This document shows positions 18,408 through 62,800 of a DNA stretch of 64,000 nt, in pieces (position 1 is the stretch's first letter; every line of letters begins with the position of its first letter). The notes beneath the pieces are model-generated. The model was not told the origin of the DNA. It ran no database searches and saw only the letters and a list, made by a program, of their open reading frames with translations. The position numbers and the translations under genes were made by a program. Origin of the DNA: Tepidiformaceae bacterium. GTDB taxonomy: Bacteria > Chloroflexota > Dehalococcoidia > Tepidiformales > Tepidiformaceae. The stretch is from assembly GCA_039917655.1 (NCBI GenBank), contig JBDSJC010000163.1, forward strand, positions 768 through 64,767, read 5' to 3'.

Positions 18408-18701
18408 ATGAAACGCGCGTCGATTACAGAAGTGAAAAACGGCCTGAGTGCGCTGCTTGACCAGGTGAAGGCGGGCGAGACGATCGTCATCACCGATCGT
18501 GGCATCCCGGTTGCGCGGATTGTTAGCGATGTGGGCGCGGATAACGACCATGGAAGAGTGGCTCGCCTGATCCGAGATGGCGTCGCGACAACGAGGGGCG
18601 GACCGTCGCCCCTAGAGCGCATCCTCCGCCCGTTCCCGCCCGGTTCCAAGCCAGCCGGCGTCCTTGAGGCGCTGCTCGAAGAGAGAAGAGAGGGGCGTTG
18701 A
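18408..18701 (+). CDS. type II antitoxin, Phd/YefM family
   Basis: MKRASITEVKNGLSALLDQVKAGETIVITDRGIPVARIV is a typical Phd/YefM N-terminus. Its stop overlaps the start of the downstream PIN gene. Confidence 0.8.
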   Translation: MKRASITEVKNGLSALLDQVKAGETIVITDRGIPVARIVSDVGADNDHGRVARLIRDGVATTRGGPSPLERILRPFPPGSKPAGVLEALLEERREGR

Positions 18702-19129
18702 GGTTCTGGGATGCGTCGGCCGTCGTCCCGCTGCTCGTCGAGGAAGCCACCACCTCGACGATGGTGCGAGGACTGGGAAACGATCAAGAGATGGTCGTCT
18801 GGTGGGGCACCGAGGTTGAGTGCATGTCGGCCATCGCACGTCGCCGTCGGAGCAACTCGCTCACTCAAGGCCTTGAGCGCGACGCTATCGACCGTCTCCG
18901 CCACCTGTCGAGATCGTGGAAAGAGATCGACCCGGCTTCAGCCGTCCGCGAAACGGCCATCCGGCTGCTCCAGACCTACGACCTTCGAGCCGCGGACGCA
19001 CTCCAGCTGGCTGCAGCGTTTGCGGCCGCGGAGGGCCGTCCATCGACGTTGGCGTTCGTCTCGTTGGATGCGCGGCTGAACGAAGCGGGGCTACGTGAGG
19101 GGTTCCGATTGCTTGACCTCGCGACCTAG
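18698..19129 (+). CDS. vapC: type II toxin, PIN-domain ribonuclease VapC
   Basis: It starts FWDASAVVPLL.EE and contains LR..DALQLAAA...... followed by FVSLDARL. These are PIN acidic-residue positions, and the gene is coupled to the antitoxin. Confidence 0.8.
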   Translation: MRFWDASAVVPLLVEEATTSTMVRGLGNDQEMVVWWGTEVECMSAIARRRRSNSLTQGLERDAIDRLRHLSRSWKEIDPASAVRETAIRLLQTYDLRAADALQLAAAFAAAEGRPSTLAFVSLDARLNEAGLREGFRLLDLAT

Positions 19130-21171: not shown

Positions 21172-21549
21172 CCCCGGCGGCGTTTCGCCAGGGCGATGAC
21201 TCGGAACGCCAGGCACGCGCACGTTTTGGGGCGGGGGCATGCCGCTCGTTGGGTCTTCGCTCGGGTGTTTACCACCACGGGGAATCGCTTCGTGGGCATC
21301 GATGACAGATTGTCGGAAGCTGGGCATCATGCCGGAGGGAACGGAGGGTTTCGGTTTGGGAACGTCTCGGGGTTATTGCGATGGTTATCAGGGTAATCCC
21401 CTATACGCGTGTGTTGTTCGTTCACTAGACTAGACAAAGTCTTAAGGGTTTTCGCCACCCAGTGCGAACCCTTTCCCGTCGGGTCGCCTCAGGTCAATCG
21501 TTGGCAGGAGTTCGATGGGGGACGATTTGCCGGAGGAACAAGAGAAAGA

Positions 21550-22356
21550 ATGAACAATTCACGAACACCAGGCCGTCCCATTGGGCTTCGCACGTCAGCC
21601 GCCCCTTCGAACCAGACGCAACAGCAGAACCGCAATCAGCACCCCATCCGCATCCTGCTGGTAGACGACCACGCCGTGATCCGCCAGGCCCTCCGGATGT
21701 TGCTGGAGAGCCAGCCTGAACTCGAAGTCGTCGCCGACGTTGAGAATGGCCGCGAAGCGGTTCAGGCGGTCGAGAAGCTTTCGCCAGACGTGGTACTGAT
21801 GGATGTGGTGATGCCCGGCCTGAATGGCCTGGAGGCCACCCGCCAGATCCGCCGCTCTTCCCCCAGCACGCGCGTGGTGATGCTCAGCGGCTTCGTTGAT
21901 GAAGACCAGCTGCTGGACTCGATCCGCGCCGGCGCCTCGGGCTACATCATCAAGAAATCGGATGTCTCCGAACTCGTCCTCGCCATTCAGACGGTCCATC
22001 GCGGAAACAGTTACTTCTCGAGCGCCTTGAGCGAAGGGTTTGACCTTGCGGAAGTTCTCTACCAGGCGAAGCGCTCCGATCAGCGCACCGGCGTCGAAGC
22101 GCTCACCTCTCGCGAGCGTGAAGTCCTTCAACTGATCGCCGAGGGCCACACCAACCAGGGGATCGCCAACGAGCTCTACATTTCAGTGAAGACGGTGGAG
22201 GCGCACAAGGCGCACATTATGGCCAAGCTTCACGCCCGCAACCGCACGGACCTCATCCGCTACGCCATCCGCAAGGGCATCGTGCGCCTCGAAAGCATGG
22301 AAGAGGCCGAGAGAATGATGGTCAACATGGGCGGCGAATCGAGCGTCGCTGGGTAG
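21550..22356 (+). CDS. NarL/FixJ (LuxR-type HTH) response regulator, no cognate kinase adjacent
   Basis: Internal ATG at 21550 (GGAGGA upstream). The receiver domain contains IRILLVDDHAVIRQAL...DVVLMDVVMPGLNG...VVMLSG. The LuxR HTH contains LTSREREVLQLIAEGHTNQGIANELYISVKTVEAHKAHIMAKL. There is a 36-aa Q/N/S-rich N-terminal extension. Confidence 0.88.
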   Translation: MNNSRTPGRPIGLRTSAAPSNQTQQQNRNQHPIRILLVDDHAVIRQALRMLLESQPELEVVADVENGREAVQAVEKLSPDVVLMDVVMPGLNGLEATRQIRRSSPSTRVVMLSGFVDEDQLLDSIRAGASGYIIKKSDVSELVLAIQTVHRGNSYFSSALSEGFDLAEVLYQAKRSDQRTGVEALTSREREVLQLIAEGHTNQGIANELYISVKTVEAHKAHIMAKLHARNRTDLIRYAIRKGIVRLESMEEAERMMVNMGGESSVAG

Positions 22357-31815: not shown

Positions 31816-33094
31816 CGACCTGGCACGCATCTATCAGCGCGTGCGCCGCGAACTTGGCCCGGATGCGGTCATCGTGGAGACGCGCAGCCTGTTGCGCGAG
31901 GGCGCCGAGGCGCTCATCGAACTGCTCGCCTACGGTCCGGACGACGATGGCCTCTCGCTCGAACTCCAGCAGCAGATGGTCAGCGGCGTGCTCGCGCGAG
32001 TAGAACGCCAGCCGCTGCCACGGACGGTCGGCGACCTCGAAGACCTGGCGGCGCGCGAGCACGATTTCCCGCAAGAACTGCAGGTGCTGCCCACCCCGTT
32101 TCCGCCGGACGAGCTGAGCGATCTGCCTGAGTGGCTGGAAGGTTTCGTCGAACACGCCCCCTCCGCACCTGGGTCTCAGCCAAGGTTGAGGAGCGAGGAG
32201 CTGGAGCAGCTGCCTCCGCTGAAATTCGCCGCCCGCCCCGTGCCAAGGGCTTCGCAAAGCCAGACCGAAATGCCGAGCGCGGAGCGTTTGCCGCTCCCCC
32301 ACCTGGACCCCGCCCACGAACCGGTTGCCGGGCCATTCGCGGCCGCCGCGGCGGCCCTGGGTGGCTATCTCACCGCTGCCGGGTTCTCGCAGGCGGCAGC
32401 CCTGGCGGTGGGGCCCTTCGCCCTGCCTGGCCGCAGCATGGAGGACGCGCTCGGCGAAGCTCTCTCCGCCTTGCCTGTCGCCTATCCCGACGAACGCCGT
32501 ACCTCAATCATCTCCATCCAGGGCGCTGCTGGTTCTGGTCGCACGACGGCGCTGATCCGCATGGCGCTGGATTGCGCCGACAGCGGGCGCACGGCGCTGT
32601 TGGTGGCAGCCGATAACAGCCGGATCGCCGCCCGCGAGCAGATTCACGCCTATGGGGAGGCGCTTGGGCTACAGGTGATCGATGCTTACTCCAACCAGGA
32701 GTTGGTCCAGGCGGTCACTTCGGCAGCCCGTGGCGCCTGCCTGTTTGTGGACGTCCCGGCCGGCCCGTGGCAGCCTCCGGCTGTGGCGTCCGCGGCGCAC
32801 TTCGCCTACCTCGCGGTCCCCGCGCACTGGCAGCCGCTGGCGCTGGCGAACAGCCTCGCCCCGTTCCCCCAATCGAACTTTGCTGGTGTTGTCCTCACGT
32901 GCACGGACATCACCGGGGCGTTTGCGGCGGCGTTGAGCGTCGTCCTCGAACGCCGGGCCGGGGTGGCATTTCTCTCTTGTAGCCGCGACGTGAGCACGGG
33001 GATCGCGGTCGCTGATCTCTTCACACTGGCATCAGGGATCTTCACTACTCCTTCGGGGGTGATAGCCAATGGGCGACTCGTTGCCAGCGCATAA
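31790..33094 (+). CDS. flhF: flagellar biosynthesis protein FlhF homologue (SRP-type GTPase fold, degenerate G motifs)
   Basis: The N-terminus is FlhF-like (YIGNDLARIYQRVRRELGPDAVIVETR). The NG domain is recognisable, but the motifs differ from canonical: G1 is GAAGSGRTT (canonical GPTGVGKTT), G3 is DVPAG (DTAGR) and G4 is TCTD (TKLD). The TTG start overlaps the flhA end. Confidence 0.7.
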   Translation: MEPKRYIGNDLARIYQRVRRELGPDAVIVETRSLLREGAEALIELLAYGPDDDGLSLELQQQMVSGVLARVERQPLPRTVGDLEDLAAREHDFPQELQVLPTPFPPDELSDLPEWLEGFVEHAPSAPGSQPRLRSEELEQLPPLKFAARPVPRASQSQTEMPSAERLPLPHLDPAHEPVAGPFAAAAAALGGYLTAAGFSQAAALAVGPFALPGRSMEDALGEALSALPVAYPDERRTSIISIQGAAGSGRTTALIRMALDCADSGRTALLVAADNSRIAAREQIHAYGEALGLQVIDAYSNQELVQAVTSAARGACLFVDVPAGPWQPPAVASAAHFAYLAVPAHWQPLALANSLAPFPQSNFAGVVLTCTDITGAFAAALSVVLERRAGVAFLSCSRDVSTGIAVADLFTLASGIFTTPSGVIANGRLVASA

Positions 33095-33767
33095 CAATCC
33101 GTTCATGGCACAAGGGCTCGTTCCCGGAACCCGGCTCCGCATGGAAGTTTCCGTGGAGAGTGGCGTGGAATCTCACGTCACTTCGGTAGAGGACGTGTCC
33201 GAGGCCGGGATCACGATCCTCACGCCGATGAAGAACCTTCGCACGCGGCCGTTCGCCAAGGGCACCGTGGTGCACGCCGCCTATGTCCACGAACGGAGAC
33301 GGTGGCGCTTCCTCACGCAGTTCACGGGTTCAGGGCTAGGCGGCCAGTTCTCGCAGCTCCGTGCGCCGGTGAGGATTGAGGACTCCGAGCAGCGCGGCTT
33401 CTTCCGCCTGCAGACGGCCGTCAAGCCGACCTCGATCTATCGCCTCGTGATGGATGCCGGGCGCGTTGCGGACGACGAACCACAGACGCTCGAAGGGACC
33501 ATCGTTGACCTGAGCGAAGGCGGCATCTGCTTAACATCGCGTCAGCTGGCGCTCGCCGGTGAACGGCTCGGAATCCAGGTAGACCTGCCTGAGTCCGGTC
33601 GGATCCACGCTCGCATTCGCGTCACCAGCGTCGAAGAACCGATCGCCGGCAACCGCAATCGCCGCATCCATTGTCAGTTCACGGACATCTCTCAGGGTGA
33701 CCGCGATCGAATCGCGCGTTACCTCATGCGCCGGCAGCTCGAGATGCGCCGCCGGGGTCTGCTGTGA
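33069..33767 (+). CDS. PilZ-domain c-di-GMP receptor (YcgR/MotI-like flagellar brake candidate)
   Basis: RxxxR (RGFFR) and DxSxxG (DLSEGG) motifs are present at canonical spacing. An N-terminal PilZN-like beta-barrel region is also present. An alternative start ATG lies at 33105. Confidence 0.8.
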   Translation: MGDSLPAHNNPFMAQGLVPGTRLRMEVSVESGVESHVTSVEDVSEAGITILTPMKNLRTRPFAKGTVVHAAYVHERRRWRFLTQFTGSGLGGQFSQLRAPVRIEDSEQRGFFRLQTAVKPTSIYRLVMDAGRVADDEPQTLEGTIVDLSEGGICLTSRQLALAGERLGIQVDLPESGRIHARIRVTSVEEPIAGNRNRRIHCQFTDISQGDRDRIARYLMRRQLEMRRRGLL

Positions 33768-34012
33768 TGCTCGCCCCGTACACCGTTGCTCGCTACGGCC
33801 TCTACTTCGCGATCGCTGTCGCTGTGTTGAGCGTGTGGCTGGGGCAACAGGCCGGCGCCTCACTTGATTTTTCGCTCCTGAGGGCGGTCTTCGTCTTCTT
33901 GCTGTTCACCGTGGTCGCCTTCCTCGCGGAAGCTGTGCTCACCTTCCGTGTCCCGCCCAGGGCGGCAATCGCAAAACTCCCTGGCAACGGGAAACAGGAC
34001 GATGACGTCTGA
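33764..34012 (+). CDS. small two-TM membrane protein, unknown function (flagellar operon)
   Basis: 82 aa with two hydrophobic helices. The start overlaps the PilZ stop, and the stop overlaps the fliA start (TGATG). Confidence 0.55.
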   Translation: MMLAPYTVARYGLYFAIAVAVLSVWLGQQAGASLDFSLLRAVFVFLLFTVVAFLAEAVLTFRVPPRAAIAKLPGNGKQDDDV

Positions 34013-34767
34013 TGAGAGGTACCTCCATGGCTCTGGCAACCGAGGCAAGGACCCCAACCGGGGACCGCGATGCCACAATCCAGCAGTACGCGCCGCTGGT
34101 GAAATACGTGGTCGGCCGGCTGGCGATCGGCCTCCCCGCGATCCTCGACTACGAGGACATCTTGAGCTACGGCACGATCGGCCTGATCGAAGCGCTCGAC
34201 CGCTTCGATGACAGCAAGGGCGTGAAGTTCGAGACCTACGCCATCAGCCGCATCCGGGGCGCAATCATTGATGCCCTGCGCGCACTGGACCGCCTCCCGC
34301 GCTCGGTGCGTCAGAAGGCGAAGCGCATGGACGCCGCGAACCTCGAACTGACCGCTGCCAATGGGCGCGAGCCAACCGGCGCCGAACTAGCTGAAGCGAT
34401 GGGCCTGACGCTCACGCAGTACCACCAGACGCTTGTCGATTGCAGCTGGGTGACGATTTCGCTCGATGGCCTGTTGGACCGCGACGAGAACAACGACGGT
34501 GGTGCACCGACAGAACTGCCCGCCGATCCGAACCAGGAAGACTTCACGGGCCGGCTGGAAAAGAAGGAGATGCTTGATGCCCTGACCGGGGCAGTCAAGG
34601 GTCTGCCGGAACGCGAGTGGCTGATCGTCAGCCTTTATTACCGCGACGAAATGACGATGCGCGAAATCGCCCAGATCCTGGACATCTCGGAATCGCGCGT
34701 CTGCCAGCTGCACGGCCGGGCGCTTGGCCGGCTACGGGGCCGACTTTCTCGCGAACGCGCAGCCTAG
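34012..34767 (+). CDS. fliA: RNA polymerase sigma factor FliA/WhiG (sigma-28)
   Basis: It contains YAPLVKYVVGRL......DYEDILSYGTIGLIEALDRFD..KGVKFETYAISRIRGAIIDALR..D.LPRSVR and the region 4 sequence MTMREIAQILDISESRVCQLH. Confidence 0.9.
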   Translation: MRGTSMALATEARTPTGDRDATIQQYAPLVKYVVGRLAIGLPAILDYEDILSYGTIGLIEALDRFDDSKGVKFETYAISRIRGAIIDALRALDRLPRSVRQKAKRMDAANLELTAANGREPTGAELAEAMGLTLTQYHQTLVDCSWVTISLDGLLDRDENNDGGAPTELPADPNQEDFTGRLEKKEMLDALTGAVKGLPEREWLIVSLYYRDEMTMREIAQILDISESRVCQLHGRALGRLRGRLSRERAA

Positions 34768-34780
34768 GAGGGATCCAGCC

Positions 34781-35170
34781 ATGAACGATGCAATCGCCTT
34801 GCTTGCCATCTCCCAACTGATCTGCCTCGGCGGGATCGTCTACCTGTACGGACAGCTGCAATCGCTGCGCCGCATTGCCCCCGTCCGCCGCAACCGTTCG
34901 AACCGTGTGCACCCGCTGCCCGCAGCGACGCAGGTTGCCGCGCGAGAGGCGGCGAACGTCGCCGCTCGCCACGCCTACCGGGCGACGGGCCAACGGCCTG
35001 AGCCTCGCCCCGTGCTGGCGCTACAGCCACGCGGGTTCGGGGTGTCCGTGCCCAGCCTTGCCATCCGCGCCAACGAAGCCGGAGTGGATGTGACTGCGAT
35101 AGCGCGGCGCATGCAGAAGAGCGAAGAAGAAGTCCGGCTGCTGCTCCGCCGCCAGGGGATTGCAAGCTAA
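34781..35170 (+). CDS. single-TM protein with C-terminal HTH-like segment (DUF2802-like), unknown function
   Basis: The ATG at 34781 has an AGGAGG RBS. It has an N-terminal TM (AIALLAISQLICLGGIVYLY) and the C-terminus GVDVTAIARRMQKSEEEVRLLLRRQG. It lies directly after fliA. Confidence 0.55.
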   Translation: MNDAIALLAISQLICLGGIVYLYGQLQSLRRIAPVRRNRSNRVHPLPAATQVAAREAANVAARHAYRATGQRPEPRPVLALQPRGFGVSVPSLAIRANEAGVDVTAIARRMQKSEEEVRLLLRRQGIAS

Positions 35171-35796
35171 TGCTGGGAACGCGAATCGCCGCGGGCCTCT
35201 GTGCCCTGGCCGTCGCGCTGGCATCGCTGCTGAGCGCGGCGCCCGCCGTCCAGGCGAACGGCGTGCCGCAGCTCGTGAAGTTGACCTACCTGGAAGGGCT
35301 CTCGAACTGGGGCCCCAAAGATGGCGAAGGCGTGCTTGAGTTCAGCTTCGCCGAGGCCTACGCCCGAGTGGATGTGAAGAACCTTAAGCTCACCGACGGG
35401 TTCAGCTACGAAGGTTGGCTGACGGGAGGCCAGGGCGAACCGCTGCTCGTCGGCAAAATTTCGGTCCAACCCTCCGGCCTCGGTACGCTGGAGACGAAGC
35501 TTCAAAGCCTCAAACGATTCGACTATGACACGTTCGTGGTTGCTGGCCGTGGCCCCGCGGAGCCCGAAGCCGCCTATCCAGCGCGGCGATCAATCGCAGG
35601 GCGCTTCACGGTGCTCAAGGATGGCTCCACCAGCACCGCCGCGGACACCCGTCCCGCGGTTCTACCCAACACGGGAGAGACGGCGGCGCTTTCGACCTCC
35701 ACGCGCTTGCTGCGGGTGGGACTGGCGGTACTCGCCGCGGGCGGCCTGGCGGCGGTTGTCCTGCGCACCAGGAAGCGGAGGGATTCGCGTGATTAA
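35170..35796 (+). CDS. secreted LPXTG-anchored protein with RskA-like (anti-sigma-K C-terminal-like) ectodomain
   Basis: It has a signal peptide (LCALAVALASLLSAAPAVQA) and a C-terminal LPNTG motif followed by a hydrophobic stretch and RTRKRRDSRD. The ectodomain motif VKNLKLTDGFSYEGWLTGGQGEPLLVGKI parallels VANLPVLPADKAYQAWFIRDGKPEPSTVF in the anti-sigma factor at 40761..41501. It has a TAATG overlap upstream and an 8-nt overlap with the rod gene downstream. Confidence 0.7.
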   Translation: MLGTRIAAGLCALAVALASLLSAAPAVQANGVPQLVKLTYLEGLSNWGPKDGEGVLEFSFAEAYARVDVKNLKLTDGFSYEGWLTGGQGEPLLVGKISVQPSGLGTLETKLQSLKRFDYDTFVVAGRGPAEPEAAYPARRSIAGRFTVLKDGSTSTAADTRPAVLPNTGETAALSTSTRLLRVGLAVLAAGGLAAVVLRTRKRRDSRD

Positions 35797-36553
35797 AGGT
35801 CTCTATTCGGCGTTTAACGCCCTTGAAGCGGCGTGGCGTTACCAGGATGTGCTGGCGAACAACATCGCCAACGCAAACACCGCTGGCTTCAAACGCGAGA
35901 TTGCCTCGCAGGAGTCGTTCGCCGATGTCTTGCTTTCGCGGCAGTCGCCGGTGCCGGCGCCGCTGCCAGCGCGCATCCAGCAGGTCATCGGCCAGATCGG
36001 CACCGGTAGCTTCATCGCCGAGTTCGCAACCGACTACCAGGACGGAGTCCAGCAGCCCACTGGCAACGAACTGGACCTCGCGACCACGCAGGGATTCTTC
36101 CAGGTTGAGTCTCCAGATGGCACGCGGTTCTACACCCGCGACGGCCGATTTGGCCGAGACGCCGCGGGCGATATGGTGACGAGCCACGGTTACCACGTGC
36201 TCAACGCGAATGGCGGCCACATCAACCTCCCGGCCGAGCGGACCTCCATCGACGCCGCTGGCAACATCGCTCGTGGCGATGGCAGCGTTATCGATCAGGT
36301 GGCGACGTACGACTTTTCGCCAACGGCGCTCAAGCGAGCGGGTGAAGGCTACTTTCTTGCCAGCACCGGTGGGCAGGCAACTCCGGGCGGTGTCCGGCAG
36401 GGCTTCCTGGAAGGCTCGAACACCAACCTCGTCGAGGAGATGACAACTCTCCTCGCCGTCCAACGCACATTTCAGGCGAACCAGACCGTGCTCGCGAAGC
36501 TCGATGGGACGCTTGACCAGGCAGCAGGCCAACTCGGCCGGTTTGGGGCATAA
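35789..36553 (+). CDS. flgF: flagellar basal-body rod protein, FlgF/FlgG family
   Basis: GTG start (GGAGGG RBS). The N-terminus is IKGLYSAFNALEAAWRYQDVLANNIANANTAGFKR. The C-terminus is GFLEGSNTNLVEEMTTLLAVQRTFQANQTVL. Confidence 0.8.
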   Translation: MIKGLYSAFNALEAAWRYQDVLANNIANANTAGFKREIASQESFADVLLSRQSPVPAPLPARIQQVIGQIGTGSFIAEFATDYQDGVQQPTGNELDLATTQGFFQVESPDGTRFYTRDGRFGRDAAGDMVTSHGYHVLNANGGHINLPAERTSIDAAGNIARGDGSVIDQVATYDFSPTALKRAGEGYFLASTGGQATPGGVRQGFLEGSNTNLVEEMTTLLAVQRTFQANQTVLAKLDGTLDQAAGQLGRFGA

Positions 36554-36556
36554 CTC

Positions 36557-37300
36557 ATGGTCACGATTCTTGGCGCGGCGGCGAGCGGGCTCGCCCACAA
36601 CCAATCCGTGATGGACGTCATCGGCCACAATCTGGCGAACGTCAACACGCAGGGCTACAAGAAGTACCGGGCACTGGCCGAAGGGCGCCCGGACCCCGCG
36701 CAACTGCCAGAAGGCGGACGCCTCGGGGTCGCCGAGACAACCCGCGACCTGATCTTCAACCAGTCCACTTCCCAGTCGACAGACGATGCCCTCCACTTTT
36801 CGATCCAGGACGACACGTTCTTTCGCGTGCGGGATACGGACGGATCGACGGCCCTCACGAGGCTCGGCTCGCTGAGCGTGGATGCCGCACGCAACATCAC
36901 GGGCTATCGCGGGCGATTCCTACAGCCGCCGGTAACGCTCCCCGAGGGCATGTCCCAGCCGGGCATCGACCAGGCGGGCCTTATCACGGCGCGGGACGAA
37001 ACCGGCGCCCGCCAGCCGATCGGCCAGGTGACGCTGGTCCGCTTCACCAACCCGCAAGGTCTGGAAGCGATGGGCGACGGCCTCTACCGCGAAACGGTGA
37101 ATAGCGGCCCGTCCAGCGAGGGGAACCCAACGGAGCAGGGATTTGCTGGGGTTATCCCAGGCAGCCTTGAGGGTTCCAACGTAGAGATTGCCGAAGAGTT
37201 TACGAACATGATTATCGCACAGCGTGCTTACCAGGCCGCTGCAAAGACCTTCAGTGTCGGCGACGAGATGCTGGCTATCGCCACCAACCTTACCCGCTAA
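36557..37300 (+). CDS. flgG: flagellar basal-body rod protein FlgG family
   Basis: It contains GLAHNQSVMDVIGHNLANVNTQGYKK and SLEGSNVEIAEEFTNMIIAQRAYQAAAKT. Confidence 0.8.
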   Translation: MVTILGAAASGLAHNQSVMDVIGHNLANVNTQGYKKYRALAEGRPDPAQLPEGGRLGVAETTRDLIFNQSTSQSTDDALHFSIQDDTFFRVRDTDGSTALTRLGSLSVDAARNITGYRGRFLQPPVTLPEGMSQPGIDQAGLITARDETGARQPIGQVTLVRFTNPQGLEAMGDGLYRETVNSGPSSEGNPTEQGFAGVIPGSLEGSNVEIAEEFTNMIIAQRAYQAAAKTFSVGDEMLAIATNLTR

Positions 37301-40760: not shown

Positions 40761-41501
40761 CTAAAGTTCGACGGCGACGAACGGGGCCGTGGTCGGCGTT
40801 TTCGCGCCGCCGCTGTCTTCGATCGTCAGCGCCATGGTACCGAACCGTTCGATTGCATCGCCCGCCGCGATCCAGACCCCGCCGGAGCCTTTGCTGAAAA
40901 CGGTGCTCGGTTCGGGCTTTCCATCGCGGATGAACCACGCCTGGTACGCCTTATCCGCCGGGAGCACAGGGAGGTTCGCGACCCACACGAAGGCCTCTCG
41001 CTGGCCGGGCGCTCGTATCAGCGTGACCAATGCGCCGCCCTGCTCACCGTGCGAGCTGGAGGCGGTGCCCTGGGCGAAGGCCTGCACGAGGCTGGCCTGC
41101 CGCCCACTGTCGGTATTCGAAGCTGAACCACCAAACTGGCTGGCGCCGAACACCGCGCCACTGACCAGCAGGACAGCGGCGGCGGCGGCGATTGCCGTGG
41201 CCCACTGCCAGCGCGGGCGGCTCTGAGGAAGGGCGCGAATCGGACGTGGTTCCGCCGCAATCCGTTCCAGCAGGCCAGTTTTCACGGAGGGCTCCGGGAC
41301 GATGTCTTCGACGATCAGCGGCAGCAGCGAGGCGACGCGCTCCATCTGCGAAAGCTCGGCCGAGCAATCCACACAGGTTGCCAGATGGGCGTGCGCTTCC
41401 GCGGCTTCGCCCTCAGGGAGCACGCCGAGGGCGAGCTCCGCCAGGAGGTCCAACGGATGTTCGAAATTCTCAGTCAACCGCCACCAAGCCTTGAGTCTCA
41501 A
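40761..41501 (-). CDS. anti-sigma factor (zf-HC2 N-domain, single TM, RskA-type C-terminal domain)
   Basis: It contains HLATCVDCSAEL (an H-x3-C-x2-C motif), a central TM (WATAIAAAAAVLLVSGAVFG) and the C-terminus YQAWFIRDGKPEPSTVF...ALTIEDSGG. It overlaps the upstream sigma gene. The exact start is uncertain (TTG 41501 or TTG ~41476). Confidence 0.75.
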   Translation of the reverse strand: MRLKAWWRLTENFEHPLDLLAELALGVLPEGEAAEAHAHLATCVDCSAELSQMERVASLLPLIVEDIVPEPSVKTGLLERIAAEPRPIRALPQSRPRWQWATAIAAAAAVLLVSGAVFGASQFGGSASNTDSGRQASLVQAFAQGTASSSHGEQGGALVTLIRAPGQREAFVWVANLPVLPADKAYQAWFIRDGKPEPSTVFSKGSGGVWIAAGDAIERFGTMALTIEDSGGAKTPTTAPFVAVEL

Positions 41502-42045
41502 GGACGCCGCCGAGCTTTAAGAGCCCGAGCCGCAGACGGCTGCGCACCGTTGGCGCGGGCACCCCGAGGATGTTGCCGACCTCCTGGCTGGAGAGGCCGT
41601 GGAAGTACACCAATTCGATTGCGCTCCGCTGTTCGCTGTTGAGCGCCTTGAGCGCTTCGCGGACTTGCGCGCCGAGGATTGCCCGTTCGGCGGTCACGTC
41701 AGTCCGTTCGGAATCCGCGAGATCCAACGCGCCGTCCATGGTGGGCAGTTGAGGGACTCGCCGCCGCCGTCTGCGCAACTCGTCCAGGCAGAGATTGCGG
41801 GTGATCGATAGCACCCAGCTGCCGACGCCCGCCTTCGCCCGGTCGTATTGCCCGGCGTTGCGCCAGACGCGGACGAACGTCTCCTGGACAGCTTCCTCCG
41901 AGTCTCCCTCTGCCCCCAGGATGCGAAGCGAGAAGGCGAAACACTGCCGGTGGAACCGATCGTAGAGCACCGAGAGGGCCGCATCTTGACCGGCCGCGAT
42001 GGCGAACACGAGGTCGGTGTCTTCTGCCAGCGAATAGTCACTCAT
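41470..42045 (-). CDS. ECF-type RNA polymerase sigma-70 family factor (SigK-like)
   Basis: Region 2 contains LYDRFHRQCFAFSLRILG...EEAVQETFVRVWRNAGQYD. Region 4 contains SQEVGNILGVPAPTVRSRLRLGL. Confidence 0.88.
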   Translation of the reverse strand: MSDYSLAEDTDLVFAIAAGQDAALSVLYDRFHRQCFAFSLRILGAEGDSEEAVQETFVRVWRNAGQYDRAKAGVGSWVLSITRNLCLDELRRRRRRVPQLPTMDGALDLADSERTDVTAERAILGAQVREALKALNSEQRSAIELVYFHGLSSQEVGNILGVPAPTVRSRLRLGLLKLGGVLETQGLVAVD

Positions 42046-53966: not shown

Positions 53967-56663
53967 TTGGTACGCACAGCCGATGATCCGTTAACAATGG
54001 CCAACGCAGTGGACACGATCATCGATTCCCTGACCAGCGCTCTTCGCCCCGGGCTGAGCATCTCGGCACTTTCGGAGGTCTTCGCTCGCACGATGGCGGA
54101 CCTGGCTCTGCTCGTGCCTTTCGATGACGCGACGCTCGCGCGGTGCGAGGAGAACCCCGCCTGGGTGCGCACGATCGGCGCCTATTCGAACGGGGCGGGT
54201 TTCTTGCCGGAGAAAACCCTGCGCAAAGCAACCGATATTGGGCTGACCATCGTCAACGCCTTTCCCGATGGTCTGGAATTCGTCCCAAAAACCGGCGGTT
54301 CCTCGGCCGCCGCCGAACTCGCCACGGCCGGCATCGCAGTCGTCTGGGTGACTCCGCTCTGGTCGGCCGGCGTCAGTCACGGGCTGTTCTCGGTCAATCG
54401 CAAGACCGCCGTGTCGTTTAACGCGGCGGAGGTGGAAGTCCTGCGGCGAATTGGTGCAGCCTTCGCGGCGCCGTTAGGCGAGGAGTGGTCTGCGACGGTC
54501 CCGGCGCAGGAGGCTAGCCGCCGCGAACTAATTGCCGCGGTTTGCCGCTGGCCTGATGGCGGAGGGACGCTGGCCGAACTGTTCGAAGGGAGCCGCCTCA
54601 CGCTGCACAGAGCGTTGCCGACGGACGCCCTGGGGCTCTTCCTCAATATCGCTCAGCCGGATCTGCCTGGCTCTTTCAATGGGGGATGGGCGAACGTTCT
54701 TGCCCAGAACACGTACCTGAACGGTTGGTTGCCTCCCACGGACGCGACCACGGACGCGACCACGGACGTTCACGAACGCCGCGAGGCCCAGCACGCCGAA
54801 CACGACTCGCTGGGCTGGCTAGTCTCGGCGCGCCTCCGGCAGGGCAGCGATGTGCTCGGCTACCTTGTCCTGCGACGCCGTTCTCGAGTGCCCCTCGGCG
54901 AAGCCGACCACACCTTTCTCGAAGTGCTCGCCATGGTCCTCAGCCAGTCGATCTGCAGCCAGCGCAGGGAGGCACAACTGCGGACGGCTCAGGATCGCTA
55001 TCGGGAGCTGTTCGAAGACGCGCCGGCGATGTACGTGATCACCCGCCACGAGGCCGGTGGCCCGGTCATCTCTGACTGCAACGACCTGTTCGTCCGGGCT
55101 GTCGAGAGCGAACGGCGCCACGTCATCGGTCGCCGCCTGTCTGACTTTGATGCCGCCATCCAACGGCCAGGGGGCGAACACCGGTTGACCGTCAGCGGCG
55201 AGGAACGGCAGCTGATTGGCAAGGAGGGCCGCGTGACCGATACCCTCCTGAGGGCCACGCCCGAGCTTTCGCCGGAAGGCCAAGTTGTGGGGACGCGCGC
55301 GATGTACATCGACATCGCCGAACGCAAAGCGTTGCAACAGCAGCTGACTCACCAGGCGTTTCACGATTCGCTCACAGACCTGCCGAACCGCGCGCTCTTT
55401 CTCGATCGCTTGGGCCACACGATCGAGCGGCAGGCGGTGCGGCAATCCCTGACGGCGGTCGCGCTACTGGACCTGGACGACTTCAAGGTGGTCAACGACA
55501 GCCTCGGCCACGCCGCCGGCGACGAGCTGTTGGTGGCCGTGACCATGCGGCTGCGCTCCTACCTGATGCCCGGCGATACGCTCGCTCGCCTCGGTGGCGA
55601 CGAATTCATGGTACTGCTCGAAGACGTGGGCGAGTCGGCGATGGCCCTCGAGCGGCTCGAAGCGCTCCTCCAGGTATTCGACGTCCCATTCAAGCTTGGC
55701 ACCCGCCAGGTGTTCGTCAACGGCAGCATCGGGTTGGTGGTCACCGAAGGCGCCGAAGTTGGCGCCAATGAGCTCTTGCGCCGGTCCGACGTTGCCATGT
55801 ACGAAGCCAAGAGGCTGGGCAAGGGCATCGTCCAGTTGTTCGATGAGACGTTTCAGAGCCGGGCCAGCCTCCGCCTCGACCAGGAATCCGAACTACGCCA
55901 GGCGATCGAGAACGGCGAGATCGAAGTCCACTACCAACCCGTGATCGACCTTGCCGACAGTTCGGTGGTTGAGATGGAGGCGTTGGCGCGCTGGCAGCAC
56001 CCGGAACGCGGTCTCCTGCCGCCGAGCGAATTCATCACGCTCGCCGAGGAGAGCGGCCAAATCGCCGCACTCGGCCGCGAAGTCCTGAAGACAGCCTGCT
56101 CCGACGCCAAGAAGTGGCTCGCTGCACCGGGGGTCTCACCCGCTTTCCGCGTCTCGGTGAACATGTCGGTGAAGCAATTGGAGCGCCCGCGGATCGTCGA
56201 TGAGGTACTCCAGGTGGTCAAAGAGTCGGGCCTCGCGCCAGCCAACCTCAAGATCGAAGTTACGGAGAGCACGATGATGGGCGACGGCGAAGCGGCCGTC
56301 TCCAAGCTTCGGCTGCTGGCAGAGGCGGGCGTGAGCATCGCCATCGATGACTTCGGCACGGGCTATTCGTCCCTCAGCTACCTGAAACGCCTGCCCGTGG
56401 ACACCGTCAAAATTGACCGGGCGTTCATCACCGGCCTGGGATCGGACAGGAGCGACACAGCAATCGTCCAGGCGGTCGTCGCTTTCGCAGCCTGCATGGA
56501 TCTGACGGTGACCGTGGAGGGAGTCGAAACTGCGACACAGCGCGAGGCCGTACGGCGCATGGGCTGCGACCGCGCCCAGGGCTACTACTTTTCGAGGCCG
56601 ATGCCGGAAGCGGAAGCGGCGAAACTGCTCGCGAATCTCTCTGGCTTCATCGCCGCGGCCTAA
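53967..56663 (+). CDS. GAF/PAS sensor-containing diguanylate cyclase/phosphodiesterase (GGDEF + EAL)
   Basis: The intact GGDEF motif is ARLGGDEFMVLL. The EAL domain contains EMEALARW and DDFGTGYSSLSYLKRLPVDTVKIDR. A PAS-like segment lies around YRELFEDAPAMYVI. The start is TTG 53967 or ATG 53997. Confidence 0.9.
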   Translation: MVRTADDPLTMANAVDTIIDSLTSALRPGLSISALSEVFARTMADLALLVPFDDATLARCEENPAWVRTIGAYSNGAGFLPEKTLRKATDIGLTIVNAFPDGLEFVPKTGGSSAAAELATAGIAVVWVTPLWSAGVSHGLFSVNRKTAVSFNAAEVEVLRRIGAAFAAPLGEEWSATVPAQEASRRELIAAVCRWPDGGGTLAELFEGSRLTLHRALPTDALGLFLNIAQPDLPGSFNGGWANVLAQNTYLNGWLPPTDATTDATTDVHERREAQHAEHDSLGWLVSARLRQGSDVLGYLVLRRRSRVPLGEADHTFLEVLAMVLSQSICSQRREAQLRTAQDRYRELFEDAPAMYVITRHEAGGPVISDCNDLFVRAVESERRHVIGRRLSDFDAAIQRPGGEHRLTVSGEERQLIGKEGRVTDTLLRATPELSPEGQVVGTRAMYIDIAERKALQQQLTHQAFHDSLTDLPNRALFLDRLGHTIERQAVRQSLTAVALLDLDDFKVVNDSLGHAAGDELLVAVTMRLRSYLMPGDTLARLGGDEFMVLLEDVGESAMALERLEALLQVFDVPFKLGTRQVFVNGSIGLVVTEGAEVGANELLRRSDVAMYEAKRLGKGIVQLFDETFQSRASLRLDQESELRQAIENGEIEVHYQPVIDLADSSVVEMEALARWQHPERGLLPPSEFITLAEESGQIAALGREVLKTACSDAKKWLAAPGVSPAFRVSVNMSVKQLERPRIVDEVLQVVKESGLAPANLKIEVTESTMMGDGEAAVSKLRLLAEAGVSIAIDDFGTGYSSLSYLKRLPVDTVKIDRAFITGLGSDRSDTAIVQAVVAFAACMDLTVTVEGVETATQREAVRRMGCDRAQGYYFSRPMPEAEAAKLLANLSGFIAAA

Positions 56664-56797
56664 CCGAGGGCAAGAAGCCGCTCCAACGGGTTTCCAACAT
56701 TCAGTGCCCGCTGGCCGTCCGCACTCTCAAGATCGAATGGATATCTCCGATATCTCTAAGGGGACCCACCACCGTGGTTGACCCCCGGAGTAGTTGA

Positions 56798-59700: not shown

Positions 59701-59815
59701 GATGGGGAAGGCTGGCGACCTCTCGAACGCGGGCCAGACCCTGCGAGTTGCCAGGGCGCAACTCGCCGAACTCCTTATGACCCTTGCTTCCTTGACCATC
59801 GAGCGGGCTGCCTGA
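56798..59815 (+). CDS. hybrid sensor histidine kinase (GAF - HisKA - HATPase_c - REC - REC - Hpt)
   Basis: The H-box is SHEIRTPMNGVIGM, and the N/G boxes are NLIGNALKFT and GGTGLGLTIS. The two receivers contain VLMDMQMPGMDG and VMMDCHMPVMDG. The C-terminal Hpt contains AAHNLKGS. Confidence 0.92.
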   Translation: MLHKLAELSVLAMTPPGAVTLEEVLLTCELVCELLEAQDVYIIRAGDPYFIRLGDDGDPRQYEVKQRGYWLAWKELAENMHSPASMFTVSDRLVKDPFPLAVGMPATHIGSILPGDESNSEMLIIRGNYPSGLTQDQVDLTTTVRPLLACLTSSFLDSQRQARLGSQLGALADVAEAFSRADEMDTVLTSLATALAKAAGIDWVTINLVDAGIAQVIERALSFARHSGTETAAQSRTGSSSGHLDLAVIRRMAKTRKPYLVPDVFDQRETLAMDDDLRRYYERAHILSTASFAITFQEKVLGAVRFSSSSKRDFGAPEVEFLKALVSQAANTVAGLQMNRDLRDANAELEQASLTSLELAMEAEASARAKSEFIANTSHEIRTPMNGVIGMTSLLLDTNLDVEQREYVETVRDSADALLTVINDILDFSKLEAGKMTFEVIDFNLRNTIEEVANLLAPAAQKKGVEFTVSTTPPIFHWQLRGDPGRLRQVLTNLIGNALKFTERGEISVSASIVSESASDVMVRLAVADTGIGISKERQAAIFESFTQADGTSTRKYGGTGLGLTISKQIAELMGGSINVESEPGVGSVFSVVVPLARQMTAAAPAPAESNLRGRTVLFVDDNATNRRILREQLTSWGCFPLEAESGADALAILRTVSSVSLVLMDMQMPGMDGQEATERLKQLPGYAGVPVVLLSSAGSLRAEDVTAGGFSAALVKPVRQSALYNTLVEVLQPAGRAPEAPPAVLLPGAPMRLGLRVLLAEDNAINQKVASRMLTRWGCEVDIVADGQSALDALSANRYDLVMMDCHMPVMDGYEATAAIRSREKHTGQHMPIVAMTANALAGDRERCIAAGMDDYVRKPVKPKDLLDALRRWGGMRQAAELANSRWPALAVFDPRQLLEACGGDHELAGEITAEFASTAPAAFDSVASAIAGANFGALAAAAHNLKGSCWAIGAAALGATLQELELMGKAGDLSNAGQTLRVARAQLAELLMTLASLTIERAA

Positions 59816-62684: not shown

Positions 62685-62800
62685 GCGGCCCCGTTTTTCC
62701 TGAGCCGCGCAAGTCGCTGGCCACTCCCCCACCGCGCAGGTATTCTTCGCAGGCGCGGTGGCTGCGGCTCGGCGTCCCCTACTAGCGAAAGAGTGTGTAC

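What the first reader, a model, noticed from the sequence alone, without database searches (positions are those of the whole stretch)
35170..35796. Sortase-type LPXTG cell-wall-anchored protein embedded in, and translationally coupled within, the flagellar operon
- The 208-aa ORF has a Sec signal peptide ending AVQA.
- Its C-terminus is a textbook sortase sorting signal: LPNTG, a hydrophobic stretch, then RTRKRRDSRD.
- Its ATG overlaps the stop of the preceding fliA-adjacent gene (TAATG). Its stop overlaps the GTG of the first rod gene by 8 nt. It is therefore co-translated with sigma-28 and the rod proteins rather than being an insertion.
- Its ectodomain resembles the extracytoplasmic RskA-type domain of the anti-sigma factor encoded just past flgL. 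Compare VKNLKLTDGFSYEGWLTGGQGEPLLVGKI with VANLPVLPADKAYQAWFIRDGKPEPSTVF.
- I know of no described flagellar component that is covalently attached to peptidoglycan by sortase.
- In a monoderm without P/L rings (none are in this cluster), a wall-anchored protein could act as a bushing or stator-anchoring element, or as a wall-located sensor for flagellar assembly.
Basis: partly seen in the sequence, partly recalled or inferred. Interest (0 to 1): 0.7.

Follow-up and report, generated by a model that had tools for sequence, protein, structure and literature searches.

The report
Wall-anchored protein in Chloroflexota flagellar operons
A small secreted protein carrying a conserved signal for covalent attachment to the cell wall is a fixed, previously undescribed part of the flagellar gene cluster of single-membrane Chloroflexota, so it is a candidate for the unknown link between their flagellum and a thick wall that lacks the usual bearing rings.

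Summary
ORF 35170-35796 (+) encodes 208 aa with these parts:
- a signal peptide (AVQA|NG);
- a confidently modelled 8-strand beta-sandwich (aa 30-146);
- a disordered linker;
- LPNTG, a hydrophobic helix and an RTRKRRDSRD tail.

Its start overlaps the upstream stop (TAATG). Its stop overlaps the rod gene's GTG by 8 nt.

The window comes from a Tepidiformaceae (Chloroflexota) MAG. The protein founds a family of about 200 clusters at 50% identity. LPxTG is kept in 119/120 close members and 83/85 diverse full-length members.

In every context I could read, the gene lies between fliA plus a small membrane protein and two distal-rod genes. That covers more than 130 close loci, distant members and Thermomicrobium roseum.

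The ectodomain is a divergent RskA_C domain; 24 of 56 members hit Pfam PF10099. It matches no known flagellar structure.

T. roseum carries the orthologue (LPQTG) and two sortases. I found no sortase in the window and could not show one for Tepidiformales.

One species fuses sigma-28 in frame to this protein.

Function is inferred only. A wall-anchored rod/wall accessory is most likely (about 0.4). A sigma-28-linked envelope sensor is the main rival (about 0.3). I found no description in the literature.

The parts
35170..35796 (+). Whole gene: 208-aa secreted, LPXTG-type protein of the flagellar operon (stop TAA 35794-35796).
   Evidence: It is 100% identical to a 'hypothetical protein' of a Tepidiformaceae MAG, and 266 homologues of about 205-212 aa were found.
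35170..35256 (+). Signal peptide, aa 1-29, with predicted cleavage at AVQA|NG.
   Evidence: Read from the sequence. The model gives a helix at aa 2-21. An A-x-A|NG junction is conserved across the family. In Pfam alignments this hydrophobic segment aligns with the transmembrane part of the RskA_C model (protein 9-111 to model 3-106). No dedicated signal-peptide predictor was available.
35257..35607 (+). Ectodomain, aa 30-146: an 8-strand Greek-key beta-sandwich that is a divergent RskA_C domain.
   Evidence: The AF2 domain-only model has pLDDT 92.4 and pTM 0.87; the full-length model has pLDDT above 90 across this region. The mature N-terminus NGVPQLVKLTY..G.SN.GP..EGV.EFSF is invariant in close members. 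Pfam RskA_C hits 24/56 family members. The best PDB fold match is only the Cu,Zn-SOD core (E 5e-3, TM 0.60). The domain contains no His or Cys.
35608..35661 (+). Flexible linker, aa 147-164 (TVLKDGSTSTAADTRPAV).
   Evidence: pLDDT is 53-58 here. Length and sequence vary across the family, apart from a Pro three residues before the LPxTG.
35662..35676 (+). LPNTG pentapeptide, aa 165-169, the predicted sortase cleavage site (between T168 and G169).
   Evidence: L, P, T and G are invariant in 27 close members. LPxTG is present in 119/120 and 83/85 members.
35677..35793 (+). Remainder of the sorting signal: a polar spacer (aa 170-179), a hydrophobic helix (about aa 180-198) and the basic tail RTRKRRDSRD (aa 199-208).
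   Evidence: The model gives a helix at aa 176-207. A hydrophobic stretch followed by an Arg/Lys tail is present in all full-length members.
34778..35170 (+). Co-conserved upstream partner of about 130 aa. It has an N-terminal transmembrane helix, a basic juxtamembrane stretch and a conserved C-terminal motif LARRMxKSEEEVRLLLRRQG. Its likely start is the ATG at 34778, not the TTG at 34724.
   Evidence: It has no Pfam or NCBIfam hit. tblastn found it in 119 loci, always upstream of the target, and the alignment begins at the conserved MNDAIALL.
34012..34767 (+). fliA (sigma-28), which always lies two genes upstream. In one species it is fused in frame to the target family.
   Evidence: Pfam Sigma70 r2/r3/r4. 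The fusion is P0203.
35789..36553 (+). First FlgF/G-type rod gene. Its GTG overlaps the end of the target gene by 8 nt.
   Evidence: Pfam Flg_bb_rod, LlgE_F_G_D1 and Flg_bbr_C; sequence.
36557..37300 (+). Second FlgF/G-type rod gene.
   Evidence: Pfam. It is conserved downstream in all loci.

Best explanation
**What it is.** The gene encodes a flagellum-dedicated envelope protein found across flagellated Chloroflexota.

**Shown:**
- It is a conserved protein family.
- It has a signal peptide, an RskA_C-like beta-sandwich, a linker and a conserved LPxTG/TM/basic sorting signal.
- Its position is fixed between fliA plus a small membrane protein and the distal-rod genes, with start/stop overlaps or gaps of a few bases.

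**Inferred mechanism:**
- The precursor is exported by Sec and its signal peptide is removed after AVQA.
- The C-terminal helix and basic tail hold it in the membrane.
- A sortase cuts between T168 and G169 and joins Thr168 to peptidoglycan.
- The 12-kDa beta-sandwich then hangs on a linker of about 20 residues inside the 20-30 nm wall.

**Most likely role (inference).** It acts where the distal rod crosses the wall of a monoderm that has no FlgH/FlgI rings. It could be a wall-fixed collar or bearing element, or a factor that lets the rod pass and settle in the wall.

**Parallel.** This resembles the way the Sec-exported FlgA/FlgH/FlgI proteins are encoded beside flgF-flgG in diderms.
For: - **Family and motif conservation:**
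- **Invariant synteny and tight coupling:**
  - All 66 loci (63 species genomes plus three found by exact-protein look-up) keep the order.
  - In 65 metagenome loci, rod1 is adjacent in 40/41 and the partner in 52/57.
  - Distant members P0142, P0186, P0131 and P0161 show the same order as far as their flanks reach.
  - T. roseum trd_A0043 scores 158 bits against the family HMM and has LPQTG, a TM helix and an Arg tail.
  - Gene calls show overlaps, or gaps of at most 5 nt, on both sides in L001, L003, L067, L070 and T. roseum.
- **Structure:** a confident compact ectodomain followed by a disordered tether.
- **No ring genes:** none in the window. FlgH/FlgI are absent from nearly all Dehalococcoidia, while Tepidiforma is flagellated, monoderm and has a 20-30 nm peptidoglycan layer (PMC10284905).
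- **Sortases in Chloroflexota:**
  - They exist in Thermomicrobia, Anaerolineae and others.
  - T. roseum has a TIGR01076-type sortase and a class F sortase on the same megaplasmid as the orthologue.
  - The orthologue is transcribed in culture (supplement of PMC6776052).
- **An open question in the field:** monoderm model flagella are said to lack known bushing and rod-cap proteins (PMC12153297).
Against: - No experiment bears on location or function.
- No sortase was found in the window or shown for any Tepidiformales genome.
- The LPXTG-anchor HMMs do not score this protein. The spacer between LPNTG and the hydrophobic helix is long (13 aa, with two Arg) and reaches 30-60 aa in distant members.
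- A variable, floppy tether is not what one expects of a rigid bearing.
- The fold resembles no solved flagellar ring, disc or collar protein.
- The only known context of the RskA_C domain is anti-sigma signalling. One species fuses sigma-28 directly to this protein, which points towards regulation rather than structure.
- Oligomerisation and rod contact could not be modelled here.
Confidence: 0.4

Rival explanations
1. **Envelope sensor tied to sigma-28.** The beta-sandwich is the outside-facing sensor of a fliA / membrane-partner / ectodomain module. The module would descend from an RskA-type anti-sigma factor that lost its cytoplasmic anti-sigma domain. It would report wall state, or the passage of the rod, to FliA or to the export gate. 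The signal would pass through the upstream single-pass membrane protein, or through the membrane-embedded C-terminal peptide left behind by sortase.
For: - The ectodomain is a divergent RskA_C domain. 24/56 members hit PF10099, the best at 7.4e-12, and P0131 is above the gathering score.
- The Pfam alignment also covers the N-terminal hydrophobic segment, which corresponds to the anti-sigma factor's transmembrane helix.
- The gene always follows fliA plus a transmembrane protein that has a conserved, probably cytoplasmic C-terminal motif.
- In one species FliA is fused in frame through that hydrophobic segment to the ectodomain-LPVTG-TM. The same protein lies on 15 contigs from independent samples, with 0-1 nt differences among the four compared. 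The separate partner gene is missing there. The topology copies sigma + anti-sigma (TM) + RskA_C.
Against: - FlgM, the standard anti-sigma-28, and FlgN are already in the operon.
- The upstream partner exposes only about 4 residues outside the membrane, so direct contact with the ectodomain is hard to picture.
- Conserved covalent wall anchoring is not needed by a membrane sensor.
- The fusion is known from a single species. It could be a tolerated loss of a stop codon, because signal peptidase would separate the two halves.
- The direct similarity to a true RskA_C anti-sigma factor in the same window is very weak.
Confidence: 0.3
2. **Plain membrane anchor.** The C-terminus is only a transmembrane tail anchor. 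LPxTG would be conserved for some reason other than sortase cleavage, or would be cleaved without wall attachment. The ectodomain would then stay tethered to the cytoplasmic membrane beside the basal body.
For: - No sortase was found near any of the loci or in the window.
- NCBIfam and PF00746 did not recognise the signal. Only 1 of 56 members hit PF00746.
- The spacers between motif and helix are unusually long and variable.
- A few members lack the motif yet keep the helix and tail: P0171, P0192 (LPVSG) and P0022 (LPDAG).
Against: - L, P and T are invariant and G nearly so, with a free x, across sequences only 25-30% identical and embedded in an otherwise unconserved linker. That is the signature of sortase recognition.
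- Sortases are widespread in Chloroflexota and co-occur with the orthologue in T. roseum.
Confidence: 0.15
3. **Hitch-hiker.** The gene encodes a surface protein, for example an adhesin, that merely sits in the operon and has no flagellar role.
For: - No homology to any known flagellar protein.
- Small LPXTG proteins are commonly adhesins (general knowledge).
Against: - Every one of more than 130 loci, including members at about 25% identity and a different class (Thermomicrobia), keeps the gene at the same place inside the operon with overlapping or abutting codons.
- No family member whose context I could read lay outside a flagellar cluster.
Confidence: 0.03

Closest known systems
RskA-type anti-sigma factors (Pfam PF10099 RskA_C; e.g. 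M. tuberculosis anti-sigma-K RskA; also window gene 40761-41501, minus strand)
   Same: - Both have an extracytoplasmic beta-rich domain that follows a hydrophobic membrane-spanning segment.
- The Pfam model hits 24/56 family members, one of them above the gathering score.
- Both are encoded next to a sigma-factor gene.
   Different: - There is no cytoplasmic anti-sigma (zf-HC2) domain. The N-terminal hydrophobic segment looks like a cleavable signal peptide.
- A C-terminal LPxTG sorting signal has been added.
- The neighbouring sigma factor is sigma-28, not an ECF sigma.
- This member scores below threshold (18.5 bits). The family HMM scores the window's true RskA_C protein at only about 7 bits.
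Sortase substrates with a C-terminal cell-wall sorting signal (e.g. S. aureus protein A; TIGR01167 / PF00746)
   Same: - N-terminal signal peptide.
- LPxTG, then a hydrophobic stretch, then a basic tail at the extreme C-terminus.
- The motif is conserved while x is free.
   Different: - The spacer between motif and helix is longer and carries charges (13 aa here, up to 30-60 aa in relatives).
- The anchor HMMs do not score it.
- The cognate sortase is unidentified in this lineage.
- In the literature I could search, no sortase substrate has been described as part of a flagellar operon.
FlgH / FlgI / FlgA (L-ring, P-ring and P-ring chaperone of diderm flagella)
   Same: - They are Sec-exported rather than exported by the flagellar type III system.
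- They are encoded directly beside the distal-rod genes flgF/flgG.
- FlgH is also held in the envelope covalently, by a lipid anchor.
- They act where the rod crosses envelope layers (established knowledge).
   Different: - There is no sequence or fold similarity.
- The proposed anchor is peptidoglycan via sortase.
- Ring formation is unknown.
[quoted passage not shown]
   Same: - The target's upstream partner (34778-35170) is likewise a small single-pass membrane protein encoded straight after the flagellar sigma-factor gene.
- By the positive-inside rule, its conserved C-terminal part is probably cytoplasmic. SwrB is described in PMC12153297.
   Different: - No detectable sequence similarity was tested or found; there is no Pfam hit.
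- B. subtilis has no LPXTG gene after swrB (own knowledge).
Cu,Zn superoxide dismutase fold
   Same: An eight-strand Greek-key beta-sandwich. It is the best structural match in the PDB (TM 0.60, E 5e-3).
   Different: - About 14% identity and a marginal E-value.
- The ectodomain has no His or Cys at all, so no metal site is possible.
- It is not an enzyme of this kind.

Membership tests
Sortase substrate (cell-wall sorting signal) | N-terminal Sec signal peptide | tested here: met
   By inspection: one Arg in the n-region, about 20 hydrophobic residues, then AVQA|NG. The A-x-A|NG junction is conserved in the family. No dedicated predictor was available.
Sortase substrate (cell-wall sorting signal) | LPXTG pentapeptide near the C-terminus, followed by a hydrophobic segment and a positively charged tail | tested here: met
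   LPNTG at aa 165-169, a hydrophobic stretch at about aa 180-198, and the tail RTRKRRDSRD. The motif is kept in 119/120 and 83/85 members.
Sortase substrate (cell-wall sorting signal) | Match to a curated anchor model (TIGR01167 / PF00746) | tested here: not met
   NCBIfam gave no hit at E<=1, and Pfam gave no PF00746 hit at E<=0.1. Only 1 of 56 family members hits PF00746 (4.8e-5).
Sortase substrate (cell-wall sorting signal) | A sortase encoded in the same genome | tested here: inconclusive
   None in the 64-kb window (motif scan, Pfam scans of about 57 ORFs, and an HMM built from 120 Chloroflexota sortases). None in about 1.2 Mb of related loci. No hit labelled Tepidiformales. T. roseum has the orthologue plus two sortases. 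The rest of this MAG could not be read.
Sortase substrate (cell-wall sorting signal) | Cleavage after Thr and amide linkage to peptidoglycan | not testable with these tools
   This needs wall fractionation and mass spectrometry.
RskA_C domain (PF10099) | Score above Pfam's gathering threshold | tested here: not met
   This protein scores 18.5 bits against a cut-off of 29.4 (E 0.0026). At family level, 24/56 members hit at E<=0.01, the best at 7.4e-12, and P0131 scores 32.8 bits, above the cut-off. The family is therefore a divergent branch of the superfamily.
RskA-type anti-sigma factor | N-terminal cytoplasmic anti-sigma domain (zf-HC2), then a TM helix, then the extracytoplasmic domain | tested here: not met
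   There is no cytoplasmic domain; the protein starts with the hydrophobic segment. The window's true example, 40761-41501 (minus strand), has zf-HC2 plus RskA_C.
Flagellar P/L-ring proteins (FlgI, FlgH) or the chaperone FlgA | Sequence or fold homology to FlgI/FlgH/FlgA | tested here: not met
   No Pfam or NCBIfam hit. No ring, disc or collar protein appears among the Foldseek PDB matches; the only flagellar entry, a FliH-FliI complex, is noise at TM 0.17.
Cu,Zn superoxide dismutase | His ligands for Cu and Zn | tested here: not met
   The ectodomain sequence contains no His or Cys.
Flagellar accessory component (operational definition) | Found only inside flagellar gene clusters, across lineages | tested here: met
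   All contexts I could read lie inside flagellar clusters. A full presence/absence profile across all Chloroflexota genomes was not run.

The most novel reading that the evidence does not exclude
**Most novel reading not excluded.** Chloroflexota flagella contain a component that is covalently fixed to peptidoglycan by sortase. It would be a wall-anchored collar around the distal rod that does the job of the missing P/L rings.

**A further possibility.** Its precursor, or the membrane peptide left behind by sortase, may also signal to sigma-28. The in-frame FliA fusion hints at this.

If so, it would be the first sortase-dependent flagellar part, and a first molecular answer to how a rod is seated in a thick monoderm wall.
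Probability: 0.2. Interest if true: 0.9.

Novelty: new variant of a known kind. Interest (0 to 1): 0.7.

Why it matters
**The open question.** How flagella of single-membrane bacteria pass through, and turn inside, a 20-40 nm wall without P/L-ring bushings, a rod cap or a dedicated lytic enzyme is unresolved even in Bacillus subtilis (PMC12153297).

**What this adds.**
- It is a concrete candidate: a Sec-exported, apparently wall-anchored protein that is as fixed a part of the Chloroflexota flagellar cluster as the rod genes.
- Earlier gene inventories left it unnamed. It is 'hypothetical' in the T. roseum genome record, and the T. roseum and Tepidiforma genome papers do not discuss it.

**Why it is testable.**
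- Cultivated, motile Tepidiforma strains already exist, with cryo-tomograms.
- T. roseum has two sortases that could be used for in-vitro assays.

**A second point.** The natural FliA fusion suggests a membrane-tethered sigma-28, which would be unusual for flagellar regulation.

Tried and rejected
1. **Sortase in the window.** A TLxTC motif scan, Pfam scans of about 57 ORFs, and an HMM built from 120 Chloroflexota sortases all found none.
2. **Sortase linked to the flagellar cluster elsewhere.** None was found in about 1.2 Mb of fetched DNA, most of it flagellar loci.
3. **Sortase in Tepidiformales via database searches.**
   - I seeded the searches with the T. roseum sortase and with a profile of divergent hits.
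   - They returned many Chloroflexota sortases, but none labelled Tepidiformales or Dehalococcoidia.
   - None lies on a contig whose length matches a contig carrying the family.
   - Cluster look-ups gave only Nitrolancea, Anaerolineae and 'Chloroflexi' names.
   - A candidate sortase cluster (P0452/P0489) has 50-55% GC, against 66-70% in Tepidiformales loci, so I rejected it.
4. **Same-contig link.** A metagenome scan for a 1.57-Mb contig that carries a sortase did not find it.
5. **Other LPXTG substrates in flanking DNA.** There are none apart from this family.
6. **Plasmid collection.** tblastn of the target found nothing. The T. roseum orthologue came to light only by reading the annotated cluster.
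7. **Homology to the neighbouring anti-sigma gene.** Not significant.
8. **PDB searches.** The sequence profile search gave no hit. Foldseek with the full model and with the domain model gave only marginal SOD/Ig-like matches.
9. **Operon signals.** No sigma-70-like promoter was found, terminators did not exceed chance inside the operon, and there was no TAAA-N15-CCGAWA sigma-28 motif.
11. **Literature.** Searches for LPXTG or sortase together with flagella found nothing relevant.
Full report
**1. The observation**

ORF 35170-35796 (+) is real. Its 208-aa product reads MLGTRIAAGLCALAVALASLLSAAPAVQA|NGVPQ... and ends ...RPAVLPNTGETAALSTSTRLLRVGLAVLAAGGLAAVVLRTRKRRDSRD.
- The upstream ORF's TAA (35168-35170) shares a base with the ATG.
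- The downstream rod gene's GTG (35789) lies 8 nt inside the target's end and is preceded by GGAGG.
- Pfam identifies the neighbours. Upstream are FlbD, MotA, MotB (with an OmpA domain), FliL, a FliM/N-like protein, FliO, FliP, FlhF, a PilZ/YcgR-like protein and FliA. ORFs at the positions of fliQ, fliR, flhB and flhA were assigned only by synteny with loci that have gene calls. A small membrane protein with no Pfam hit lies between the PilZ gene and fliA. Next come a 130-148-aa protein with no family, then the target.
- Downstream are two FlgF/G-type rod proteins, FlgM, FlgN, FlgK and FlgL.
- No terminator excess and no promoter-like site interrupt this 18-kb run.
- No FlgH, FlgI or FlgA domain occurs in the scanned window ORFs.

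**2. Origin and family**

The protein is 100% identical to a hypothetical protein of a Tepidiformaceae MAG. This lineage is Chloroflexota, class Dehalococcoidia in GTDB. Its cultivated genus Tepidiforma is flagellated and monoderm, has a 20-30 nm peptidoglycan layer, and lacks flgH/flgI (PMC10284905).
- A word-indexed search gave 266 homologues, all about 205-212 aa.
- An exhaustive profile search of 1.84 billion representatives gave 201 clusters at E<=1e-3 and 100 at E<=1e-10. Nearly all are 185-260 aa with the same layout.
- In 27 close members the LPxTG residues and the mature N-terminus (A)NGVPQLVKLTY..G.SN.GP..EGV.EFSF are invariant.
- In 56 diverse members (25-50% identity), A29, G31, G54, W83, L165, P166 and T168 are invariant and G169 nearly so.
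- LPxTG occurs in 119/120 close and 83/85 diverse full-length members. The x residue varies freely (D, E, N, R, V, K, Y and others), and the linker around the motif is not conserved. That pattern is what recognition by a sortase predicts.

**3. Synteny**

A scan of one genome per species found close relatives in 63 genomes. Nearly all are labelled Chloroflexota; one, labelled Hyphomicrobiales, is probably a binning error. The complete genome of T. flava is among them.
- In all 66 loci then in hand, tblastn gives the order flhA-flhF-(pilZ)-small-fliA-partner-TARGET-rod-rod-flgM-flgN-flgK-flgL.
- In 65 further metagenome loci, the rod gene is adjacent in 40/41 and the partner in 52/57 cases with enough flank.
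- Four distant members that I looked up individually show the same order as far as their flanks reach.
- On the Thermomicrobium roseum megaplasmid, the gene between the partner and the rod genes (TRD_RS09470 = trd_A0043, 'hypothetical') scores 158 bits against the family HMM. It ends ...LPQTGEV...hydrophobic...RRAR.
- The 2009 T. roseum genome paper lists trd_A0041 as fliA and trd_A0044-5 as rod genes but does not mention A0042 or A0043 (PMC2615216).
- Both A0042 and A0043 are transcribed in culture (supplement of PMC6776052).
- Where genes were called, the junctions are overlaps or gaps of at most 5 nt.
- The gene is therefore a fixed member of the cluster, not an insertion.

**4. Domain and fold**

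- Pfam gives only a sub-threshold RskA_C match for this protein (E 0.0026). However, 24/56 members match, the best at 7.4e-12, and one member passes the gathering score.
- The match includes the N-terminal hydrophobic segment, which corresponds to the anti-sigma factor's transmembrane helix.
That gene (40761-41501, minus strand) really has zf-HC2 plus RskA_C and is paired with an ECF sigma. The pairwise relation is insignificant, and the pair is not conserved beside other flagellar loci.
- AlphaFold2 gives a confident 8-strand sandwich (pLDDT 92.4 and pTM 0.87 for the domain alone), a low-confidence linker holding LPNTG, and a C-terminal helix.
- Foldseek against the PDB finds only marginal Cu,Zn-SOD or Ig-like matches and no flagellar ring, disc or collar protein. 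A sequence profile finds no solved relative.
- The domain has no His or Cys, so it is not an SOD.

**5. Sortase**

- None is in the window or in about 1.2 Mb of related loci.
- T. roseum has a sortase (TRD_RS12705; TIGR01076, 57 bits against a cut-off of 39) and a class F sortase (TRD_RS14000). Both lie on the replicon that carries the orthologue.
- Homologues of the first are abundant in Thermomicrobia, Anaerolineae and unclassified Chloroflexota.
- I could not show one in a Tepidiformales genome. This point stays open and is the cheapest decisive test.

**6. An unexpected fusion**

- Family member P0203 (541 aa) is FliA (regions 2-4), a 45-aa linker, the hydrophobic segment with VALA|NG, the ectodomain, LPVTG, a TM helix and a basic tail.
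- The identical protein lies on 15 contigs from independent samples. The four compared differ by 0-1 nt. The context is flhA-small-[fusion]-rod-rod-flgM..., and there is no separate partner gene.
- It is a real sequence, but from one species.
- It reproduces the topology of sigma plus anti-sigma (TM) plus RskA_C, and it is a Rosetta-stone hint of a functional tie to sigma-28.
- Alternatively, it is a tolerated stop-codon loss, because signal peptidase would separate the two halves.

**7. Interpretation**

- *Shown:* a conserved, Sec-type protein with a sortase-type sorting signal and an RskA_C-like ectodomain is an invariant part of Chloroflexota flagellar clusters. Its anchoring in the envelope is inferred from those features.
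- *Inferred:* sortase links Thr168 to peptidoglycan, leaving a 12-kDa sandwich on a short tether in the wall.
- *Most likely role (about 0.4):* a structural or assembly accessory where the distal rod crosses the wall. The parallel is with the Sec-exported FlgA/H/I proteins encoded beside flgF/G in diderms. MotB's own OmpA domain makes a stator-anchor role less necessary.
- *Main rival (about 0.3):* an envelope sensor coupled to FliA through the upstream membrane protein, which is a positional analogue of B. subtilis SwrB (PMC12153297).
- *Other readings:* a plain membrane-anchor reading (about 0.15) and a hitch-hiker reading (about 0.03) are less likely.

**8. Novelty**

- Searches of the held literature for LPXTG or sortase together with flagella, and the Tepidiforma, T. 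roseum and actinobacterial flagella papers, describe nothing like it.
- The modules are known; their combination and flagellar context are not.
- I rate it a new variant of a known kind, with a real chance of being a new class of flagellar component.

Noticed in passing
window 34724-35170 (likely true start ATG 34778): The gene between fliA and the target encodes a small single-pass membrane protein. Its conserved features are MNDAIALLAISQL..., a basic juxtamembrane stretch, and the C-terminal motif LARRMxKSEEEVRLLLRRQG. It is co-conserved with the target in 119 loci and has no Pfam or NCBIfam family. By position and topology it resembles B. subtilis SwrB, which is encoded after sigD.
   Followed up: partly
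L149-L152 (e.g. L150:6001-7626; NCBI GCA_012841665.1 DUUH01000420.1): One species encodes sigma-28 (FliA) fused in frame, through the family's signal-peptide-like segment, to the ectodomain-LPVTG-TM. The identical protein is on 15 contigs from independent samples. Its cluster lacks flhF, pilZ and the small partner gene. This may be a membrane-tethered sigma-28.
   Followed up: partly
L072:36531-36914 (T. roseum NC_011961, TRD_RS09465): The T. roseum counterpart of the small partner gene is annotated 'transmembrane sensory transduction histidine kinase for metal resistance'. It is a 127-aa single-pass protein, so the annotation looks wrong. The adjacent family member TRD_RS09470 is annotated 'hypothetical'.
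   Followed up: partly
window 40761-42045 (minus strand): An ECF sigma factor (41470-42045) and a zf-HC2 + RskA_C anti-sigma factor (40761-41501) lie convergent to, and directly after, flgL. The pair is not found after flgL in the other loci that have gene calls, so the adjacency seems incidental.
   Followed up: partly
window 33069-34012: A YcgR-like PilZ protein (PilZNR + PilZ) overlaps the end of flhF. An 82-aa hydrophobic protein with no family follows it. Both are conserved in this position in Tepidiformales loci. No FlhG/MinD-type ATPase accompanies FlhF in the cluster.
   Followed up: no
window 53967-59815: A GGDEF-EAL protein (898 aa) lies next to a GAF-containing hybrid histidine kinase with two receiver domains and an Hpt domain (1005 aa). 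They could supply the c-di-GMP input for the PilZ brake in the flagellar operon.
   Followed up: no
L064 (Tepidiforma flava NZ_CP115149.1:1667126-1685655): In this 'complete' genome the family gene and several neighbouring flagellar genes are broken by frameshifts; the target switches frame near 9132 and has further indels. The strain is reported to be motile, so these are probably long-read assembly errors rather than pseudogenes.
   Followed up: partly
L074:15241-16077 and L076:4001-4756: The Chloroflexota housekeeping-type sortase keeps a Ser/Thr kinase and lgt nearby downstream in both T. roseum and Nitrolancea (immediately adjacent in Nitrolancea). The T. roseum class F sortase (L078:23620-24387) sits beside a DUF4397 protein that has a C-terminal hydrophobic tail but no LPXTG.
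   Followed up: no
proteins P0141, P0158, P0128: Three metagenomic family members run straight into rod-protein sequence, and in P0141 and P0158 the LPXTG is missing. They may be deletions, frameshifts or chimeric assemblies.
   Followed up: no
window 18408-19129: A Phd/YefM antitoxin and PIN-domain toxin pair lies about 3.5 kb upstream of the start of the flagellar cluster (flbD, 22576). A GNAT acetyltransferase, an ABM monooxygenase-like protein and a LuxR-type response regulator (21409-22356) lie in between, before flbD.
   Followed up: no
window 62795-64000: An ORF that runs off the end of the window combines an N-terminal FHA domain with several Ig-like or NEW3-type beta-sandwich domains.
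   Followed up: no
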